Shown here: positions 14,630-64,000 of the stretch, one piece after another
Numbering within the stretch: the stretch's first letter is position 1
How the letters are laid out: the number at the start of each line of letters is the position of its first letter
NCBI GenBank assembly: GCA_964016885.1
Contig: OZ024763.1
Coordinates: forward strand, 16,554,001-16,618,000
DNA: 64,000 bases
Reading direction: 5' to 3'
From: Eledone cirrhosa
Lineage: Eukaryota
Notes under the pieces: model-generated
The model's input: the letters and a program-made list of their open reading frames with translations, nothing else
The model's database searches: none
Told to the model about the DNA's origin: nothing
Program-made: the position numbers and the translations under genes

Positions 14630-14842
14630 TAAAAATGTTTTGAACAGTTCTTTGATTCTCATATTTCATATATATATATATATCATCATATATGTGTGTG
14701 TATATATATATATATATTTGTAGTATGGTTGCTAGGATGCTTCCATAGGCGGTATGCCGGTTGAGCACTCTATGCCCCTTCAGAGCAGAGTATGATAAAA
14801 TGGAAAACGAAGAATCAATGATGCATCGGAACACAATTTATT

Positions 14843-14935
14843 ACGTATTACAATTGTTTCTCCGGCAAACAGCTTGAGGTGCGATCTGTGTGTGGATCAA
14901 ACCTGACTCTGGATTCACAAGTTCCTCAGATATGT
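14843..14935 (-). ncRNA. Hammerhead-like ribozyme with long stem-II insert (left arm)
   Basis: acatat-CTGAGGA-~62 nt-GAAA-caattg-TA-atacgt-aataaa. Confidence 0.6.
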
Positions 14936-15109
14936 CTAGTGATTTTGAAGCAGAAAGAGAATTTGCTTTGAAATCACTAGTCGTTTCTGAGGAACTTGCG
15001 AATCCAGAATCAGGTTCGATCTGTGTGTGGATCGAACCTGACTCTGGATTTGCAAGTTCCTCAGATATGTCTAGTGATTTCAAAGAAAATTCTCTTTCGA
15101 AGTCACTAG

Positions 15110-15202
15110 ACGTATCTGAGGAACTTGTGAATCCAGAGTCAGGTTTGATCCACACACAGATCACACCTCAAGCTGTTTGCCGGAGAAACAATTGTAATAC
15201 GT
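15110..15202 (+). ncRNA. Hammerhead-like ribozyme with long stem-II insert (right arm)
   Basis: Perfect stem I ACGTAT/ATACGT; CTGAGGA at 15116-15122; 62-nt insert; GAAA at 15185-15188; palindromic CAATTG; GUA site; AATAAA follows. Confidence 0.7.
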
Positions 15203-15243
15203 AATAAATTGTGTTCCGATACATCACAGATTCTTCGTTTTCC

Positions 15244-15279
<36 letters not shown>

Positions 15280-15304
15280 TAGATGTTCTTTTGATCAATT
15301 ACAT

Positions 15305-15355
15305 TTTATTATACATATTTCGGATGTACAACAGTACGTCCTCATCAGACAAAAT
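15305..15355 (-). ncRNA. Type I hammerhead ribozyme
   Basis: CTGATGA-ggacgtac.tgtt.gtacatcc-GAAA-tatg-TA-taataaa. Confidence 0.8.
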
Positions 15356-15856
15356 ATAATGATATATGACATACCCTGAGATGTTAAATGGTTAAGATTT
15401 AATCAAGGTAGTGATTAACCTAAGAGAAAGTTTAACATTTATACCCTAATAATGAGAAAATGCGAAAACGTAATAAATTCATTAGAGAATGTGTGAGTAA
15501 GAAAAACGTTGCTTAATGTAACAGTTATAGAGATTTTAAAATGTATGATACTATAATTTATCAGGGAAAGCGGTCAATGAGAGCTGCTGAGATAATATAT
15601 ATAGAGAGAGGGAATATATGTAGAAAGAGATTTTCCGAAAGTTAAACGGTTAAGTTTGAAAATATTTAATTTATGCTATTTTAGGGTGAAGATTCAAGAT
15701 TTTAGGTTTTTTTTTTTTTTTTAAATTTATTGAATTTATTACGTTTTCGCATTTTCTCATTATTAGGGTATAAATGTTAAACTTTCTCTTAGGTTAATCA
15801 CTACCTTGATTAAATCTTAACCATTTAACATCTCAGGGTATGTCATATACCATTAT

Positions 15857-15907
15857 ATTTTGTCTGATGAGGATGTACTGTTGTACCTCCGAAATATGTA
15901 TAATAAA
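15857..15907 (+). ncRNA. Type I hammerhead ribozyme
   Basis: CTGATGA(15864-15870)-ggatgtac.tgtt.gtacctcc-GAAA(15891-15894)-tatg-TA. Confidence 0.8.
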
Positions 15908-16052
15908 ATGTAATTGATAAAAAGAACATCTATTTTATTAATATTTGTATTTTAATATTAATAACTCTGGAAAATTATTTCCCATAGAGTGCTTCCAATC
16001 TACTGTAAAACTCATTCTTTGATGTACTCATTGAATATTGTTTAACTCTTTA

Positions 16053-21476: not shown

Positions 21477-21509
<33 letters not shown>

Positions 21510-21845
21510 GGAGGCACCTGGCTTAGTGGTTAGAGCATTGGCCTTGCAATCGAAAGGTTGTGAGTTCAATTCTCAGATCGGGTGATGTGTTGTTTCCTTG
21601 AGCAAGACACTTTATTTCACATTGCTCCAGTTTCCTCAGCTGTAGAAATGAGATGATAGGGACTGGGGTCCCTATCATTCCACTGCAAAGTGGACGTGGA
21701 GGTGCCACGGCAAAAAAGCACCCAGCACTCACTGTAAATGAGGTTGGTGTTAGGAAGGGCATCCAGCTGTAGAAATCAAGCCAGAATCAGTTCCCGTCCC
21801 ACCCTTGCAAGCAGGGAAAAAGCGGACGTAAAATGAAATAAAATG
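21510..21845 (+). mobile_element. SINE family A, full length
   Basis: Near-identical to 7252-7590. Confidence 0.92.
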
Positions 21846-21885
21846 AAAATATGTATGTATATATATATATGTGTGTATATATATA

Positions 21886-21917
<32 letters not shown>

Positions 21918-22433
21918 GTGTGTTTTTCTTTATATATTTGTTTACAATCTACTATCTCTCACTACATCATTATAAGTCAGAACTATGAGAAAACAAACCC
22001 GATACTATTACATCGTTTGAACGTCTAACTAGGAAGAACTAATATATATTTATATATATATATATTGTTATACTTTGGGAGGGTCATGTTGCCAAAAAGA
22101 AACACACGCACCAGTTGCTTTCACTTCAATTTATTATATATTTATAAATTTACAAATTTATAAATTTCTGGTTGGCAACATGACCCTCCCAAAGTATAAC
22201 AATATCGGTTTCAACACACGTTTTCAGATAAAGAATCTTGCTAAACAAATTCAGAAACGAAATATATATATATAGTTATTTAAAAAGTCTACTTCTGTCC
22301 TCGCCATACACAGAGCCCTTGCTACATCTAACTAATATCAATCGATGTCCAGTTTTTAGTAATCTTTCAATATACATACATACATACATATATATATATA
22401 TATGGTATACGTCAAGACGGGCACACATATATA

Positions 22434-22776
22434 TCATCATTTCATCATTTCATTTTACGTCCGCTTTTTCCCTGCTTGCAAGGGTGGGACGGGAACTGAT
22501 TCTGGCTTGATTTCTACAGCTGGATGCCCTTCCTAACACCAACCTCATTTACAGTGAGTGCTGGGTGCTTTTTTGCCGTGGCACCTCCACGACCACTTTG
22601 CAGTGGAATGATATGGACCCCAGTCCCTATCATCTCATTTCTACAGCTGGATAAACTGGAGCAATGTGAAATAAAGTGTCTTGCTCAAGGAAACAACACA
22701 TCACCCGGTCTGAGAATTGAAATCACAACCTTTCGATTGCAAGGCCAATGCTCTAACCACTAAGCCATGTGCCTCC
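22434..22776 (-). mobile_element. SINE family A, full length, inside the right TIR arm
   Basis: Reverse complement of family A. Confidence 0.92.
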
Positions 22777-22916
22777 ATATATATATTAAGAAATCCATAC
22801 AATTGCTTGTGTATCGTAAATTACACTATTGAGACCTGTTGTAAAAAAAAAAAAAAACAAATTCACAGTGTCAAAAATTACTTTCACTTTCCAGACCGCC
22901 CGTCTTGACCTATGCC

Positions 22917-23050
22917 ACTTTATTTTATCAACCCCGTAAGGATGAAAGGCAAAGTTAACCTCGGCGGGATTTGAACTCGGATCATACAGGGAGGTAACTC
23001 TATGCTTCAAAGCATGGCGTCCGACCCTCTACCGATACTGACAATCCATA
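22917..23050 (-). mobile_element. SINE family B 5' part (3' part at 21256-21316)
   Basis: The sequence continues across the TSD. Confidence 0.85.
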
Positions 23051-23175
23051 TAATTGGTGTTGTATGCTTAAAGCGTCCGTATGCGGTAGGCCGTTTGAGC
23101 ACTCGATGCTCTCATAGAACAGAGTATGATATCACAGAAAAAAGAGAATCAGTGTTGCGACGAATGGAATTTATT

Positions 23176-23271
23176 GGACATATTACAATCGTTTCTCTGG
23201 CAACCGGCTCGAGGCACGGTCGATGTGATGATCGAACCTGACTCTGAAAATCTCAAGGTCCTCAGATACGA
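23176..23271 (-). ncRNA. Hammerhead-like ribozyme with long stem-II insert (left arm)
   Basis: cgtat-CTGAGGA-~63 nt-GAAA-cgattg-TA-atatg. Confidence 0.6.
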
Positions 23272-23414
23272 TTGATTCTAGAACCTGACTCTGAAAATCA
23301 CAAGGTCCTCAGATACGTCTTGATTCTAGAACCTGACTCTGAAAATCACAAGGTCCTAAGATACGTCTTGATTCTACGAAGCAGATTTTCCTAAATTCTG
23401 CTTCGTAGAATCAC

Positions 23415-23510
23415 GACGTATCTGAGGACCTTGTGATTTTCAGAGTCAGGTTCGATCATTACATCGATCGTGCCTCGAGCTGGTCGCCAGAGAAACGATT
23501 GTAATATGTC
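23415..23510 (+). ncRNA. Hammerhead-like ribozyme with long stem-II insert (right arm)
   Basis: Stem I GACGTAT/ATATGTC; CTGAGGA at 23422-23428; GAAA at 23492-23495; CGATTG-TA; AATAAA follows. Confidence 0.7.
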
Positions 23511-23577
23511 CAATAAATTCCATTTGTCGCAACACTGATTCTTTTTTTTTCTGTGATATATATATATAGAGAGAGAG

Positions 23578-56934: not shown

Positions 56935-57222
56935 CTATATAGAAGCCTGTGTGTAGAGAAACACCAAAAATATTACAAATGAGAAGCAAAACAACACCAC
57001 GGCCCTTGAACACACCACCACTCTCACAATCTAGGAAACGCAATTTATAGACTACATGTCCCTCACACAATCCACAATGATTCAACATTAGGTGCCTGAT
57101 GAACCATGTTAGAACATCACAGCTTGTCATTCTCTAATTCGATTCTATAGAGCAGGTTGTTTTTGTTTTGCTTCTCATTTGTAATATTTTTGGTGTTTCT
57201 CTACACACAGGCTTCTATATAG
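56935..57222. repeat. Inverted repeat (arms ~56935-56995 and ~57162-57222)
   Basis: CTATATAGAAGCCTGTGTGTAGAGAAACACCAAAAATATTACAAATGAGAAGCAAAAC and its reverse complement. Confidence 0.85.
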
Positions 57223-57275
57223 AGCTCAAGGCGTTTCAACGGCTATTTATGGACTGGGCTCAAGCAATACCTCCG

Positions 57276-60200
57276 ACCATCTGTAGACAGTTGCATGGAC
57301 CAGCAGTGTCTGTAGCTATTGATTCTGGGTTTAATTCTCATCTCTGATCATCAGCAGACAGTTGCATGGACCAGCAGTGTCTGTAGCTATTGATTCTCGG
57401 TTTAATTCTCATCTCTGATCATCAGCAGACAGTTGCATGGACCAGCAGTGTCTGTAGCTATTGATTCTCGGTTTAATTCTCATCTCTGATCATTAGCAGA
57501 CAGTTGCATGGACCAGCAGTGTCTGTAGCTATTGATTCTGGGTTTAATTCTCATCTCTGATCATCAGCAGACAGTTGCATGGACCAGCAGTGTCTGTAGC
57601 TATTGATTCTCGGTTTAATTCTCATCTCTGATCATTAGCAGACAGTTGCATGGACCAGCAGTGTCTGTAGCTATTGATTCTGGGTTTAATTCTCATCTCT
57701 GATCATCAGCAGACAGTTGCATGGACCAGCAGTGTCTGTAGCTATTGATTCTCGGTTTAATTCTCATCTCTGATCATTAGCAGACAGTTGCATGGACCAG
57801 CAGTGTCTGTAGCTGTTGATTCTCGGTTTAATTCTCATCTCTGATCATTAGCAGACAGTTGCATGGACCAGCAGTGTCTGTAGCTATTGATTCTCGGTTT
57901 AATTCTCATCTCTGATCATCAGTAGACAGTTGCATGGACCAGCAGTGTCTGTAGCTGTTGATTCTTGGTTTAATTCTCATCTCTGATCATCAACAGACAG
58001 TTGCATGGACCAGCAGTGTCTGTAGCTGTTGATTCTCGGTTTAATTCTCATCTCTGATCATTAGCAGACAGTTGCATGGACCAGCAGTGTCTGTAGCTAT
58101 TGATTCTCGGTTTAATTCTCATCTCTGATCATCAGTAGACAGTTGCATGGACCAGCAGTGTCTGTAGCTGTTGATTCTTGGTTTAATTCTCATCTCTGAT
58201 CATCAACAGACAGTTGCATGGACCAGCAGTGTCTGTAGCTGTTGATTCTCGGTTTAATTCTCATCTCTGATCATCAACAGACAGTTGCATGGACCAGCAG
58301 TGTCTGTAGCTGTTGATTCTTGGTTTAATTCTCATCTCTGATCATCAACAGACAGTTGCATGGACCAGCAGTGTCTGTAGCTGTTGATTCTCGGTTTAAT
58401 TCTCATCTCTGATCATCAACAGACAGTTGCATGGACCAGCAGTGTCTGTAGCTGTTGATTCTCGGTTTAATTCTCATCTCTGATCATCTGTAGACAGTTG
58501 CATGGACCAGCAGTGTCTGTAGCTGTTGATTCTGGGTTTAATTCTCATCTCTGATCATCAACAGACAGTTGCATGGACCAGCAGTGTCTGTAGCTGTTGA
58601 TTCTGGGTCTAATTCTCATCTCTCATCATCAACAGACAGTTGCATGGACCAGCAGTGTCTGTAGCTGTTGATTCTCGGTTTAATTCTCATCACTGACCGT
58701 CAACAGACAGTTGCATGGACCAGCAGTGTCTGTAGCTGTTGATTCTCGGTTTAATCCTCATCTCTGACCATCAACAGACAGTTGCATGGACCAGCAGTGT
58801 CTGTAGCTGTTGATTCTCGGTTTAATTCTCATCTCTGATCATCAACAGACAGTTGCATTGACCAGCAGTGTCTGTAGCTGTTGATTCAGGGTTTAATTCT
58901 CATCTCGGATCATCAACAGACAGTTGCATGGACCAGCAGTGTCTGTAGCTGTTGATTCAGGGTTTAATTCTCATCTCTGATCATCAGCAGACAGTTGCAT
59001 TGACCAACAGTGTCTGTAGCTGTTGATTCTCGGTTTAATTCTCATCTATGATCATCAACAGACAGTTGCATGGACCAGCAGTGTCTGTAGCTGTTGATTC
59101 TCGGTTTAATTCTCATCTCTGATCATCAGCAGACAGTTGCATTGACCAACAGTGTCTGTAGCTGTTGATTCTCGGTTTAATTCTCATCTCTGATCATCAA
59201 CAGACAGTTGCATTGACCAACAGTGTCTGTAGCTGTTGATTCTCGGTTTAATTCTCATCTCTGATCATCAACAGACAGTTGCATGGACCAGCAGTGTCTG
59301 TAGCTGGTGATTCTCGGTTTAATTCTCATCTCTGACCATCAACAGACAGTTGCATGGACCAGCAGTGTCTGTAGCTGTTGATTCTCGGTTTAATTCTGAT
59401 CTCTGATCATCAACAGACAGTTGCATGGACCAGTAGTGTCTGTAGCTGTTGATTCTGGGTTTAATTCTCATCTCTGATCATCTGTAGACAGTTGCATGGA
59501 CCAGCAGTGTCTGTAGCTGTTGATTCTCGGTTTAATTCTCATCTCTGATCATCAACAGACAGTTGCATGGACCAGCAGTGTCTGTAGCTGTTGATTCTTG
59601 GTTTAATTCTCATCTCTGATCATCAACAGACAGTTGCATGGACCAACAGTGTCTGTAGCTGTTGATTCAGGGTTTAATTCTCATCTCTGATCATCAACAG
59701 ACAGTTACATGGACCAGCAGTGTCTGTAGCTGTTGATTCTCGGTCTAATTCTCATCTCTGACCATCAACAGACAGTTGCATGGACCAGCAGTGTCTGTAG
59801 CTGTTGATTCTTGGTCTAATTCTCATCTCTGATCATCTGTAGACAGTTGCATGGACCAGCAGTGTCTGTAGCTGTTGATTCTCGGTTTAATTCTTATCTC
59901 TGATCATCAACAGACAGTTGCATGGACCAGCAGTGTCTGTAGCTGTTGATTCTCGGTTTAATTCTCATCTCTGATCATCAACAGACAGTTGTATGGACCA
60001 GCAGTGTCTGTAGCTGTTGATTCTTGGTTTAATTCTCATCTCTGATCATCAACAGACAGTTGCATGGACCAACAGTGTCTGTAGCTGTTGATTCTCGGTC
60101 TAATTCTCATCTCTGATCATCTGTAGACAGTTGCATGGACCAGCAGTGTCTGTAGCTGTTGATTCTGGATTTAATTCTCATCTCTGATCATCAACAGACA

Positions 60201-63200
60201 GTTGCATGGACCAGCAGTGTCTGTAGCTGTTGATTCAGGGTTTAATTCTCATCTCTGACCATCAACAGACAGTTGCATGGACCAGCAGTGTCTGTAGCTG
60301 TTGATTCAGGGTTTAATTCTCATCTCTGACCATCAACAGACAGTTGCATGGACCAGCAGTGTCTGTAGCTGTTGATTCTGGGTTTAATTCTCATCTCTGA
60401 CCATCAACAGACAGTTGCATGGACCAGCAGTGTCTGTAGCTGTTGATTCTGGGTTTAATTCTCATCTCTGACCATCAACAGACAGTTGCATGGACCAGCA
60501 GTGTCTGTAGCTGTTGATTCTGGGTTTAATTCTCATCTCTGATCATCAACAGACAGTTGCATGGACCAGCAGTGTCTGTAGCTGTTGATTCTTGGTTTAA
60601 TTCTCATCTCTGATCATCAACAGACAGTTGCATGGACCAACAGTGTCTGTAGCTGTTGATTCAGGGTTTAATTCTCATCTCTGATCATCAACAGACAGTT
60701 ACATGGACCAGCAGTGTCTGTAGCTGTTGATTCTCGGTCTAATTCTCATCTCTGACCATCAACAGACAGTTGCATGGACCAGCAGTGTCTGTAGCTGTTG
60801 ATTCTTGGTCTAATTCTCATCTCTGATCATCTGTAGACAGTTGCATGGACCAGCAGTGTCTGTAGCTGTTGATTCTCGGTTTAATTCTCATCTCTGATCA
60901 TCAACAGACAGTTGCATGGACCAGCAGTGTCTGTAGCTGTTGATTCTCGGTTTAATTCTCATCTCTGATCATCAACAGACAGTTGTATGGACCAGCAGTG
61001 TCTGTAGCTGTTGATTCTTGGTTTAATTCTCATCTCTGATCATCAACAGACAGTTGCATGGACCAACAGTGTCTGTAGCTGTTGATTCTCGGTCTAATTC
61101 TCATCTCTGATCATCTGTAGACAGTTGCATGGACCAGCAGTGTCTGTAGCTGTTGATTCTCGGTTTAATTCTCATCTCTGATCATCAGCAGACAGTTGCA
61201 TTGACCAACAGTGTCTGTAGCTGTTGATTCTGGGTTTAATTCTCATCTCTGACCATCAACAGACAGTTGCATGGACCAGCAGTGTCTGTAGCTATTGATT
61301 CTCGGTTTAATTCTCATCTCTGATCATCAGTAGACAGTTGCATGGACCAGCAGTGTCTGTAGCTGTTGATTCTTGGTTTAATTCTCATCTCTGACCATCA
61401 ACAGACAGTTGCATGGACCAGCAGTGTCTGTAGCTGTTGATTCTTGGTCTAATTCTCATCTCTGATCATCTGTAGACAGTTGCATGGACCAGCAGTGTCT
61501 GTAGCTGTTGATTCTCGGTCTAATTCTCATCTCTGATCATCTGTAGACAGTTGCATGGACCAGCAGTGTCTGTAGCTGTTGATTCTGGGTTTAATTCTCA
61601 TCTCTGATCATCAACAGACAGTTGCATGGACCAGCAGTGTCTGTAGCTGTTGATTCTTGGTTTAATTCTCATCTCTGATCATCAACAGACAGTTGCATGG
61701 ACCAACAGTGTCTGTAGCTGTTGATTCAGGGTTTAATTCTCATCTCTGATCATCAACAGACAGTTGCATGGACCAGCAGTGTCTGTAGCTGTTGATTCTC
61801 GGTTTAATTCTCATCTCTGATCATCAACAGACAGTTGCATGGACCAGCAGTGTCTGTAGCTGTTGATTCTCGGTTTAATTCTCATCTCTGACCATCAACA
61901 GACAGTTGCATGGACCAGCAGTGTCTGTAGCTGTTGATTCTGGGTTTAATTCTCATCTCTGACCATCAACAGACAGTTGCATGGACCAGCAGTGTCTGTA
62001 GCTGTTGATTCTGGGTTTAATTCTCATCTCTGACCATCAACAGACAGTTGCATGGACCAGCAGTGTCTGTAGCTGTTGATTCTGGGTTTAATTCTCATCT
62101 CTGACCATCAACAGACAGTTGCATGGACCAGCAGTGTCTGTAGCTGTTGATTCTGGGTTTAATTCTCATCTCTGACCATCAACAGACAGTTGCATGGACC
62201 AGCAGTGTCTGTAGCTGTTGATTCTGGGTTTAATTCTCATCTCTGACCATCTGTAGACAGTTGCATGGACCAGCAGTGTCTGTAGCTGTTGATTCTGGGT
62301 TTAATTCTCATCTCTGACCATCAACAGACAGTTGCATGGACCAGCAGTGTCTGTAGCTGTTGATTCAGGGTTTAATTCTCATCTCTGACCATCAACAGAC
62401 AGTTGCATGGACCAGCAGTGTCTGTAGCTGTTGATTCTGGGTTTAATTCTCATCTCTGACCATCAACAGACAGTTGCATGGACCAGCAGTGTCTGTAGCT
62501 GTTGATTCTGGGTTTAATTCTCATCTCTGACCATCAACAGACAGTTGCATGGACCAGCAGTGTCTGTAGCTGTTGATTCTGGGTTTAATTCTCATCTCTG
62601 ACCATCAACAGACAGTTGCATGGACCAGCAGTGTCTGTAGCTGTTGATTCTGGGTTTAATTCTCATCTCTGACCATCAACAGACAGTTGCATGGACCAGC
62701 AGTGTCTGTAGCTGTTGATTCTGGATTTAATTCTCATCTCTGATCATCAACAGACAGTTGCATGGACCAGCAGTGTCTGTAGCTGTTGATTCTGGATTTA
62801 ATTCTCATCTCTGATCATCAACAGACAGTTGCATGGACCAGCAGTGTCTGTAGCTGTTGATTCTGGATTTAATTCTCATCTCTGATCATCAACAGACAGT
62901 TGCATGGACCAGCAGTGTCTGTAGCTGTTGATTCTGGATTTAATTCTCATCTCTGATCATCAACAGACAGTTGCATGGACCAGCAGTGTCTGTAGCTGTT
63001 GATTCTGGATTTAATTCTCATCTCTGACCATCAACAGACAGTTACATGGACCAGCAGTGTCTGTAGCTGTTGATTCAGGGTTTAATTCTCATCTCTGATC
63101 ATCAACAGACAGTTGCATGGACCAGCAGTGTCTGTAGCTGTTGATTCAGGGTTTAATTCTCATCTCTGACCATCAACAGACAGTTTCATGGACCAGCAGT

Positions 63201-64000
63201 GTCTGTAGCTGTTGATTCAGGGTTTAATTCTCATCTCTGACCATCAACAGACAGCTGCATGGACCAGCAGTGTCTGTAGCTGTTGATTCTGGGTTTAATT
63301 CTCATCTCTGATCATCAACAGACAGTTGCATGGACCAGCAGTGTCTGTAGCTGTTGATTCAGGGTTTAATTCTCATCTCTGATCATCAACAGACAGTTGC
63401 ATGGACCAGCAGTGTCTGTAGCTGTTGATTCAGGGTTTAATTCTCATCTCTGACCATCAACAGACAGTTGCATGGACCAGCAGTGTCTGTAGCTGTTGAT
63501 TCAGGGTTTAATTCTCATCTCTGACCATCAACAGACAGTTGCATGGACCAGCAGTGTCTGTAGCTGTTGATTCAGGGTTTAATTCTCATCTCTGACCATC
63601 AACAGACAGTTGCATGGACCAGCAGTGTCTGTAGCTGTTGATTCAGGGTTTAATTCTCATCTCTGATCATCAACAGACAGTTGCATGGACCAGCAGTGTC
63701 TGTAGCTGTTGATTCTGGGTTTAATTCTCATCTCTGATCATCAACAGACAGTTGCATGGACCAGCAGTGTCTGTAGCTGTTGATTCAGGGTTTAATTCTC
63801 ATCTCTGACCATCAACAGACAGTTGCATGGACCAGCAGTGTCTGTAGCTGTGGATTCAGGGTTTAATTCTCATCTCTGACCATCAACAGACAGTTGCATG
63901 GACCAGCAGTGTCTGTAGCTGTTGATTCTGGGTTTAATTCTCATCTCTGATCATCAACAGACAGTTGCATGGACCAGCAGTGTCTGTAGCTGTTGATTCT
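57276..64000. repeat. 71-bp satellite (~95 copies, runs off the window end)
   Basis: Period 71 (TTGCATGG at 57291, 57362, 57433). Unit CATCAACAGACAGTTGCATGGACCAGCAGTGTCTGTAGCTGTTGATTCTCGGTTTAATTCTCATCTCTGAT. Confidence 0.98.

What the first reader, a model, noticed from the sequence alone, without database searches (positions are those of the whole stretch)
15110..15208. Hammerhead-like RNAs with a ~62-nt domain replacing stem II, conserved in two diverged subfamilies
15110-15202 and 23415-23510 both keep stem I pairing (ACGTAT/ATACGT versus GACGTAT/ATATGTC), CTGAGGA, GAAA, stem III and GUA. Their 62-63-nt inserts contain internal pairings (CTTG/C(A/G)AG and a GATC..GATC hairpin). The base of stem II does not pair canonically, so standard HHR searches would miss it. 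It may be a branched or pseudoknotted variant.
Basis: partly seen in the sequence, partly recalled or inferred. Interest (0 to 1): 0.75.

Follow-up and report, generated by a model that had tools for sequence, protein, structure and literature searches.

The report
Long-armed hammerhead of Penelope retrotransposons
This is the predicted self-cutting RNA motif (a hammerhead) at the tail of a jumping gene copied thousands of times in this animal genome; one arm is stretched into a long, unbranched, conserved hairpin, and some branches of the family kept that arm while changing letters that cutting normally needs.

Summary
They are type I hammerheads at the 3' end of a Penelope-like retrotransposon with Hydra-clade protein motifs, here as truncated, inverted insertions in (TA)n. 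The 62-63 nt insert does not replace stem II: it is stem II, one long bulged, unbranched hairpin. The mismatched first pair (A.A, C.A) varies by subfamily and has published precedent. The genome holds at least 7,679 matches (control 0) and other hammerheads with stem II regions of 12-95 nt. What I could not find in print: a near-invariant internal loop (AGARUC/YGAGCU) in the arm, and subfamilies that amplified with altered cores (CCGUCGA, 1,101 matches versus 4,204 canonical, at least two origins). Cleavage is not shown; no RNA data were available, and the window copies are likely dead. The scan noted long-stem-II Penelope hammerheads before, on other DNA of this and other genomes. Verdict: new variant of a known kind, moderate interest.

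The parts
15110..15202 (+). Type I hammerhead motif, subfamily A (stem I 15110-15115/15197-15202; predicted cut after 15196)
15116..15122 (+). Core CUGAGGA (C3-A9), canonical
15123..15184 (+). Extended stem II: A.A at the base, proximal helix 15124-15131/15176-15183 with one U.C mismatch, then middle and apical helices closing an 8-nt loop 15151-15158
15134..15143 (+). 5' strand of the conserved internal-loop motif (CAGAGUCAGG); partner strand 15166-15175 (this copy has A15170 where the family has G)
15185..15196 (+). GAAA core, short palindromic stem III (ACAAUUGU) and GUA triplet
   Evidence: monomer stem III probability 0.01, self-dimer 8 bp
14843..14935 (-). Inverted second full hammerhead copy of insertion A (core 14929-14923)
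14720..14794 (-). Optional 3' tail of the element (about 75-90 nt), present on the inverted copy only; ends approximate
14949..15098 (.). Two internal partial copies (14949-15021 +, 15012-15098 -) at the inversion junction
14718..15250 (.). Whole 5'-truncated, inverted insertion A between (TA)n tracts (14668-14717, 15244-15274)
23415..23510 (+). Type I hammerhead motif, subfamily B (core 23422-23428; 63-nt stem II region 23429-23491 with C.A at the base; predicted cut after 23503)
23179..23270 (-). Inverted second full hammerhead copy of insertion B (core 23265-23259)
23234..23376 (.). Three copies of a 48-nt tandem duplication at the inversion junction of insertion B
23048..23559 (.). Whole 5'-truncated, inverted insertion B, with the tail on the minus-strand copy

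Best explanation
It is a type I hammerhead motif at the 3' end of a Penelope-like retrotransposon with Hydra-clade protein motifs, its stem II is one long unbranched hairpin supported by covariation, and in the active parent element it likely cleaves only weakly, as a dimer or with help from the element's protein. Shown: the motif, copy number, (TA)n insertion, 5' truncation and inversion, two discrete 3' ends, an upstream RT and C-terminal GIY-YIG for subfamily A and its sisters, and the covarying hairpin. Inferred: cleavage after GUA, dimerisation through the palindromic stem III, and a second role of the conserved internal loop in stem II, most likely as a contact for the element's RT-endonuclease or a tertiary contact. 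The two window insertions are likely dead by-products: a read-through transcript is predicted to fold into a 430-450 nt hairpin that buries the ribozyme.
For: Family size and control. Hairpin: RNAalifold found the proximal and middle helices unprompted; full model 84.3% of cells paired, 20 of 31 pairs with two-sided changes, 0 of 500 shuffles as high, slid controls 27-35%; the insert alone folds to this hairpin in both window copies. Parent: a GIY-YIG-type endonuclease lies 0.7-3.5 kb upstream on the same strand at 12 distinct loci (14 rows); CxCx5C linker, CxxC and CxH around the EN end, DKT, RWR and YRDD in the RT part (L233) fit the Hydra description in PMC8557442 section 11. 3' ends pile up at +54 and about +140-150 after the cut site, matching the PLE tail signature. 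Stem III monomer probability is 0.00-0.08 in all 23 rows and it self-pairs over 8 bp, as in dimer-type PLE hammerheads. A Poseidon PLE hammerhead cleaves only with protein added (PMC11167929).
Against: No cleavage or expression data. 5' ends of genomic copies do not pile up at the predicted cut site: 1 true junction among 10 rows that break there genome-wide, and 1 local copy starting at +1. In full-motif folding the proximal stem II has low probability in the window copies (0.02 and 0.01) against 0.76 for the best A copy. Folding z-scores of the whole motifs are not significant (-0.34, -0.82). Within subfamily A the core decays about as fast as its neighbours (12 of 330 versus 4.3-5.6%). Many relatives carry non-canonical cores. 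Subfamily B was tied to the parent by homology only; no endonuclease was seen upstream of a B copy. Pfam support is weak (GIY-YIG E 0.11; none), and the clade call rests on motifs, not on a tree.
Confidence: 0.75

Rival explanations
1. Same element and fold, but catalysis is vestigial across the family: the hammerhead scaffold is kept mainly because the extended stem II and its internal loop are the cis signal that the RT-endonuclease binds before copying.
For: CCGUCGA cores (U4C plus A6U) have 1,101 matches against 4,204 canonical, arose at least twice (one clade rejected, p-AU 4.8e-64), and lie downstream of long endonuclease frames (L234, L238, L240). By-eye tally of the 100 rows: 36 canonical, 14 U4C type, 12 CCGUCGA type, 15 with an 8-nt core, 18 truncation junctions, 5 single mutants. 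The internal-loop letters are as conserved as the core across 23 representatives. Changes or insertions at A6 gave low activity in natural variants (PMC3088659 section 8), and cleavage was not needed for insertion in vitro (PMC11167929). No pile-up of ends at the cut site.
Against: C3, G5, A9, GAAAC and GU stay invariant, and stems I and III covary, in all 23 representatives including the variant-core ones, which is what catalysis or at least the catalytic fold would keep. Canonical cores are the largest class, and both window subfamilies have them. U4C is reported to keep enough activity in vivo in a viroid. Motif conservation is partly built into the motif-anchored searches (9 of 23 rows) and the loose filter.
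Confidence: 0.2
2. The insert is a branched or pseudoknotted domain that replaces stem II (CTTG pairing with CRAG, plus a 3' CUG/CAG hairpin), giving a new hammerhead topology.
For: The complementarities exist in the two window copies (MFE of the B copy includes the 3' hairpin). A different family in this genome has a 95-nt stem II region predicted to branch, so branching is possible in principle.
Against: 0 of 11 pairs with two-sided changes, 62% of cells paired in the CTTG/CRAG helix, 500 of 500 shuffles as high. No non-model run of 3 or more pairs involves the apical loop; the eight non-model runs carry 0-3 two-sided cells against 3-19 for model runs.
Confidence: 0.04
3. Chance resemblance to a hammerhead inside an ordinary repeat.
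For: No Rfam hammerhead match; whole-motif folding energy no better than shuffles.
Against: Thousands of matches against 0 in controls, covariation in all three stems, and position at the 3' end of a Penelope-like element, where hammerheads are the rule.
Confidence: 0.01

Closest known systems
Hammerheads of Hydra-clade Penelope-like elements (Craig et al. 2021, PMC8557442; seen: passages, section 11, supplement File S1 sheets and File S2 table)
   Same: Type I, near the 3' end, (TA)n insertion, short palindromic stem III (ACAA..UUGU-A in Penelope-2_NV), frequent unpaired or U.U base of stem II, C-terminal EN with CxCx5C linker and DKT.
   Different: Listed Hydra hammerheads have loop 2 of 3-10 nt (stem II region up to about 25 nt); here the region is 57-63 nt with a conserved internal loop, the 3' UTR is over 1 kb, and whole subfamilies have altered cores.
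Atypical Chlamys/PLE-X hammerheads in the same table (PLE-X1_sMoe, PLE-X1_sTam, PLE-X1_cBra)
   Same: Long loop 2 (35 and 29 nt) and, in PLE-X1_cBra, a C.A at the base of stem II as in subfamily B.
   Different: Plant and algal elements of another clade, single consensus sequences, no reported covariation or conserved motif in the long arm.
Minimal and variant PLE hammerheads (Cervera and De la Pena 2014, PMC4209133; seen: parts 1-2 of 4, no supplements)
   Same: [quoted passage not shown]
   Different: Helix II there is 6-8 bp; here about 22 bp with bulges.
PAc Poseidon element of Anolis (PMC11167929; seen: passages)
   Same: Two 3' ends defining a tail; hammerhead in the pLTR.
   Different: Shown biochemically (protein-assisted, not needed for insertion in vitro); its ORF starts in stem II, whereas here the motif lies over 1 kb behind the ORF.
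Natural hammerhead core variants (Perreault et al. 2011, PMC3088659; seen: passages and section 8)
   Same: U4C, A6C, insertion after A6 and U10.1-U11.1 are described.
   Different: U4C combined with A6U, amplified to over a thousand copies in two lineages, is not among the variants in the parts I read.

Membership tests
Type I hammerhead ribozyme | Core CUGANGA, GAAA, UH in order | tested here: met
   Both window motifs and their inverted copies
Type I hammerhead ribozyme | Stems I, II, III around the core, open at stem I | tested here: met
   Covariation in all three helices
Type I hammerhead ribozyme | Standard pair at 10.1-11.1 | tested here: not met
   A.A and C.A in the window copies; standard in 12 of 23 representatives; mismatches also in published PLE hammerheads, so this marks a variant rather than excluding membership
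Type I hammerhead ribozyme | Stem I-stem II tertiary contact or pseudoknot | tested here: inconclusive
   No supported base-paired contact; non-canonical contacts cannot be seen this way
Type I hammerhead ribozyme | Self-cleavage at the UH site | not testable with these tools
   No assay; genomic ends give no signal
Penelope-like element (EN+) | RT plus GIY-YIG endonuclease | tested here: met
   Motifs read in L091, L094, L226, L233, L234; Pfam only E 0.11, none; shown for subfamily A and sisters, not for B
Penelope-like element (EN+) | 5' truncation with inverted copy and optional tail | tested here: met
Penelope-like element (EN+) | Partial tandem forming a direct pLTR upstream of a full ORF | tested here: inconclusive
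   No intact full-length or direct-tandem copy among 20 loci of 10 kb
Hydra clade | C-terminal EN with CxCx5C linker, CxxC and CxH motifs | tested here: met
   CNCRAGTQC, CRLC, CRH in L234, L094 against PMC8557442 section 11
Hydra clade | DKT and RWK motifs in the RT region | tested here: met
   SDKTG and RWR (conservative change) in L233, L241
Hydra clade | Insertion into (TA)n | tested here: met
Hydra clade | Placement in an RT phylogeny | not tested
   No reference proteins were loaded
Pseudoknotted or branched hammerhead | Extra helix with covariation | tested here: not met
Non-LTR retrozyme | Short non-coding tandem monomers each with a hammerhead | tested here: not met
   Copies are truncated ends of a coding element, arranged inverted, not as tandem monomers

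The most novel reading that the evidence does not exclude
In this retrotransposon lineage the hammerhead has been co-opted: its stretched stem II with the invariant AGARUC/YGAGCU loop is the RNA handle for the element's own RT-endonuclease, and lineages have twice converged on the same two-step core change (CUGA to CCGA to CCGU) that either switches cutting off or is a new, protein-rescued catalytic core.
Probability: 0.25. Interest if true: 0.68.

Novelty: new variant of a known kind. Interest (0 to 1): 0.42.

Why it matters
Why Penelope-like elements carry hammerheads is open: cleavage is weak, protein-assisted in one case and dispensable in vitro. This family offers a natural series (canonical, U4C, U4C+A6U, 8-nt cores; paired and mismatched stem II base) on one conserved scaffold, each amplified in the genome, which makes 'catalysis versus binding scaffold' directly testable. 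It also shows that descriptors limited to short stem II or a paired 10.1-11.1 miss thousands of hammerheads per genome.

Tried and rejected
One search used a mis-registered structure string (my indexing slip; 44% paired) and was replaced. Rfam: whole-window scan was swamped by microsatellite miRNA matches (150 of 509 rows shown); local scans gave no hammerhead. RNA runs: no RNA holder listed; the two contig sets laid only show many related copies. Metagenome scan gave 1 match, inside what reads as bacterial coding DNA and without the hairpin, rejected as chance; viral contigs 0. Cut-site footprint in genomic ends: none; the G and J parts were swamped by (TA)n matches and were not used. Coding explanation for the conserved motif rejected: insert lengths of 57-63 nt do not keep a frame. 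An alternative pairing of the core UCUG with CAGA or CAGG is available in most rows but has 0-2 two-sided cells; left as a possible inhibitory fold. Lunse et al. (PMC5785218) is not held and was not read. Literature searches; none listed a description of this long-stem Hydra hammerhead, and the phrases 'long stem II' and 'extended stem II' had 0 occurrences in the 20 papers listed of 23. Unseen supplements (Cervera 2014 figures, Lunse, bioRxiv 2026) may hold long-stem variants.

Full report
Observation. Both motifs are present at the stated coordinates with a canonical CUGAGGA, GAAA, a short palindromic stem III and GUA, and inserts of 62 and 63 nt. Each sits in a near-perfect inverted repeat between (TA)n tracts and has a second full copy on the minus strand. 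The window is part of a 3.0-Gb, microsatellite-rich animal genome; I did not determine the organism (the repeat landscape recalled a cephalopod to me, untested, which is why searches used those terms).

Family. DNA searches returned 2,131 and 1,002 first-look candidates for the two subfamilies. A pattern covering both gave 1,589 exact matches against 0 for the control. A looser core-anchored pattern (666 matches, control 6) exposed sister subfamilies with the same long arm, and a pattern anchored on the arm and GAAAC, without the 5' core, gave 7,679 matches against 0 (a lower bound). The held loci also contain many unrelated hammerheads with stem II regions of 12 to 95 nt (181 distinct hits), so a long stem II is one end of a continuum in this genome.

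Parent element. Copies are 5'-truncated, often with an inverted partner, and end at +54 or about +140-150 nt after the predicted cut (26 and 34 copies at +54 for A and B). Walking upstream of subfamily A through a long microsatellite-rich 3' UTR reached a GIY-YIG-type endonuclease and the RT thumb. An endonuclease lies 0.7-3.5 kb upstream on the same strand at 12 distinct loci, covering A, A2 and G-type copies but not B. The protein shows CxCx5C, CxxC, CxH, DKT, RWR and YRDD, which fits the Hydra clade as defined in PMC8557442 section 11. Pfam gave only a sub-threshold GIY-YIG match and nothing; no RT tree was built, and no intact full-length copy was seen in 20 loci.

Structure of the insert. 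I aligned 23 real copies chosen as subfamily representatives (medoid identities of the six larger clusters 52-80%). RNAalifold found the proximal and middle helices by itself. The full model (stem I, a 22-pair unbranched stem II, stem III) has 84.3% of cells paired and 20 of 31 pairs with two-sided changes, 13 of 22 in stem II; 0 of 500 shuffles reached this, and slid controls gave 27-35%. The rows are related, so these counts are not independent events. No other helix with support, and none from the apical loop, was found in alignment plus flanks. The inserts of both window copies fold alone to the same hairpin (100 shuffles, z -0.7 and -2.4). The first pair of stem II is G-C in 6, G-U in 4, A-U or U-A in 2 and mismatched in 11 of 23 rows. 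Published Hydra hammerheads mostly have U.U there and PLE-X1_cBra has C.A; U.U is also noted in PMC3088659 and PMC7229834.

What stands out. First, the middle of the arm carries a motif (5' AGARUC, 3' YGAGCU, a 2x1 internal loop between short helices) whose letters are kept in 21-23 of 23 rows, like the core, while the flanking helices and the apical loop change freely. Nine rows came from motif-anchored selection; in the 14 from core-anchored searches GARUC is present in 14 and GAGCU in 12 (read), though a loose motif filter adds some circularity. Second, when the 5' core is not demanded, it is often changed subfamily-wide: only 8 of 30 loci had CUGANGA, and my by-eye tally of the 100 rows gave 36 canonical, 14 U4C type, 12 CCGUCGA type, 15 with 8-nt cores, 18 junctions and 5 single mutants. 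CCGUCGA has 1,101 matches against 4,204 canonical. In a tree of 66 copies built without the 5' core, thinned from 155, the 10 CCGUCGA rows fall in two lineages about 52% alike, each with U4C-only relatives, and one clade is rejected; recombination could mimic this. Changes at A6 lowered activity in natural variants, so these cores are predicted to be impaired.

Mechanism. Shown: sequence, context, covarying fold. Inferred from PLE literature: weak cleavage after GUA through a dimer formed by the palindromic stem III (monomer probability 0.00-0.08; 8-bp self-duplex) or with the element's protein. Against activity: no end pile-up at the cut, neutral decay within subfamily A (core 12 of 330; 21 of 30 copies with an intact core), and low probability of the proximal helix in the decayed window copies. 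A read-through transcript of either window insertion is predicted to be one long hairpin, so these copies are probably inert.

Novelty. Hammerheads in Penelope-like elements, mismatched stem II bases, long loop 2 and inverted truncated insertions are all published. I found no description of this long conserved arm or of amplified CCGUCGA cores; one key paper was not held and several supplements were not seen. Earlier notes of this scan report long-stem-II Penelope hammerheads on other DNA; they are leads, not support. Verdict: new variant of a known kind, interest 0.42.

Noticed in passing
window 12980-13045 (-) and 13140-13205 (+): Another inverted pair of type I hammerheads with a 31-nt stem II region and ATATAT palindromic stem III.
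   Followed up: partly
window 15298-15360 (-), 15852-15914 (+), 39180-39232 (-): Canonical short-stem (20-nt) hammerheads of a third family, an inverted pair directly next to insertion A; Rfam missed them too.
   Followed up: partly
L189:815-965 (-); L277-L296: A separate, young family (1,865 candidates, about 97% identity) whose 95-nt stem II region is predicted to branch into two hairpins above an 8-bp stem with a U.U base; 19 of 20 loci matched. Copies are too alike for covariation.
   Followed up: partly
L116 (-) near 964: Hammerhead-like motif with a 91-nt unbranched stem II and CACGUG stem III; single copy seen.
   Followed up: no
L246-L275 and genome-wide: CCGUCGA core in two lineages, 1,101 matches.
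   Followed up: yes
L197, L198, L206 and similar: Abundant subfamily with an 8-nt core CUGAAAGA and a non-palindromic CAUUUG stem III.
   Followed up: partly
L182, L183: More distant family with a 59-nt stem II and a related-looking internal loop.
   Followed up: no
window 21482-22790: Several nested inverted repeats of other interspersed elements (for example 22071-22130 against 22165-22205), suggesting inversion on insertion is common here.
   Followed up: no
window 57129-64000: Long 71-nt tandem array, at least 93 copies.
   Followed up: no
window 53608-54066 (-): Fragment reading like the C-terminus of an RTE-type LINE protein (label recalled, not tested).
   Followed up: no
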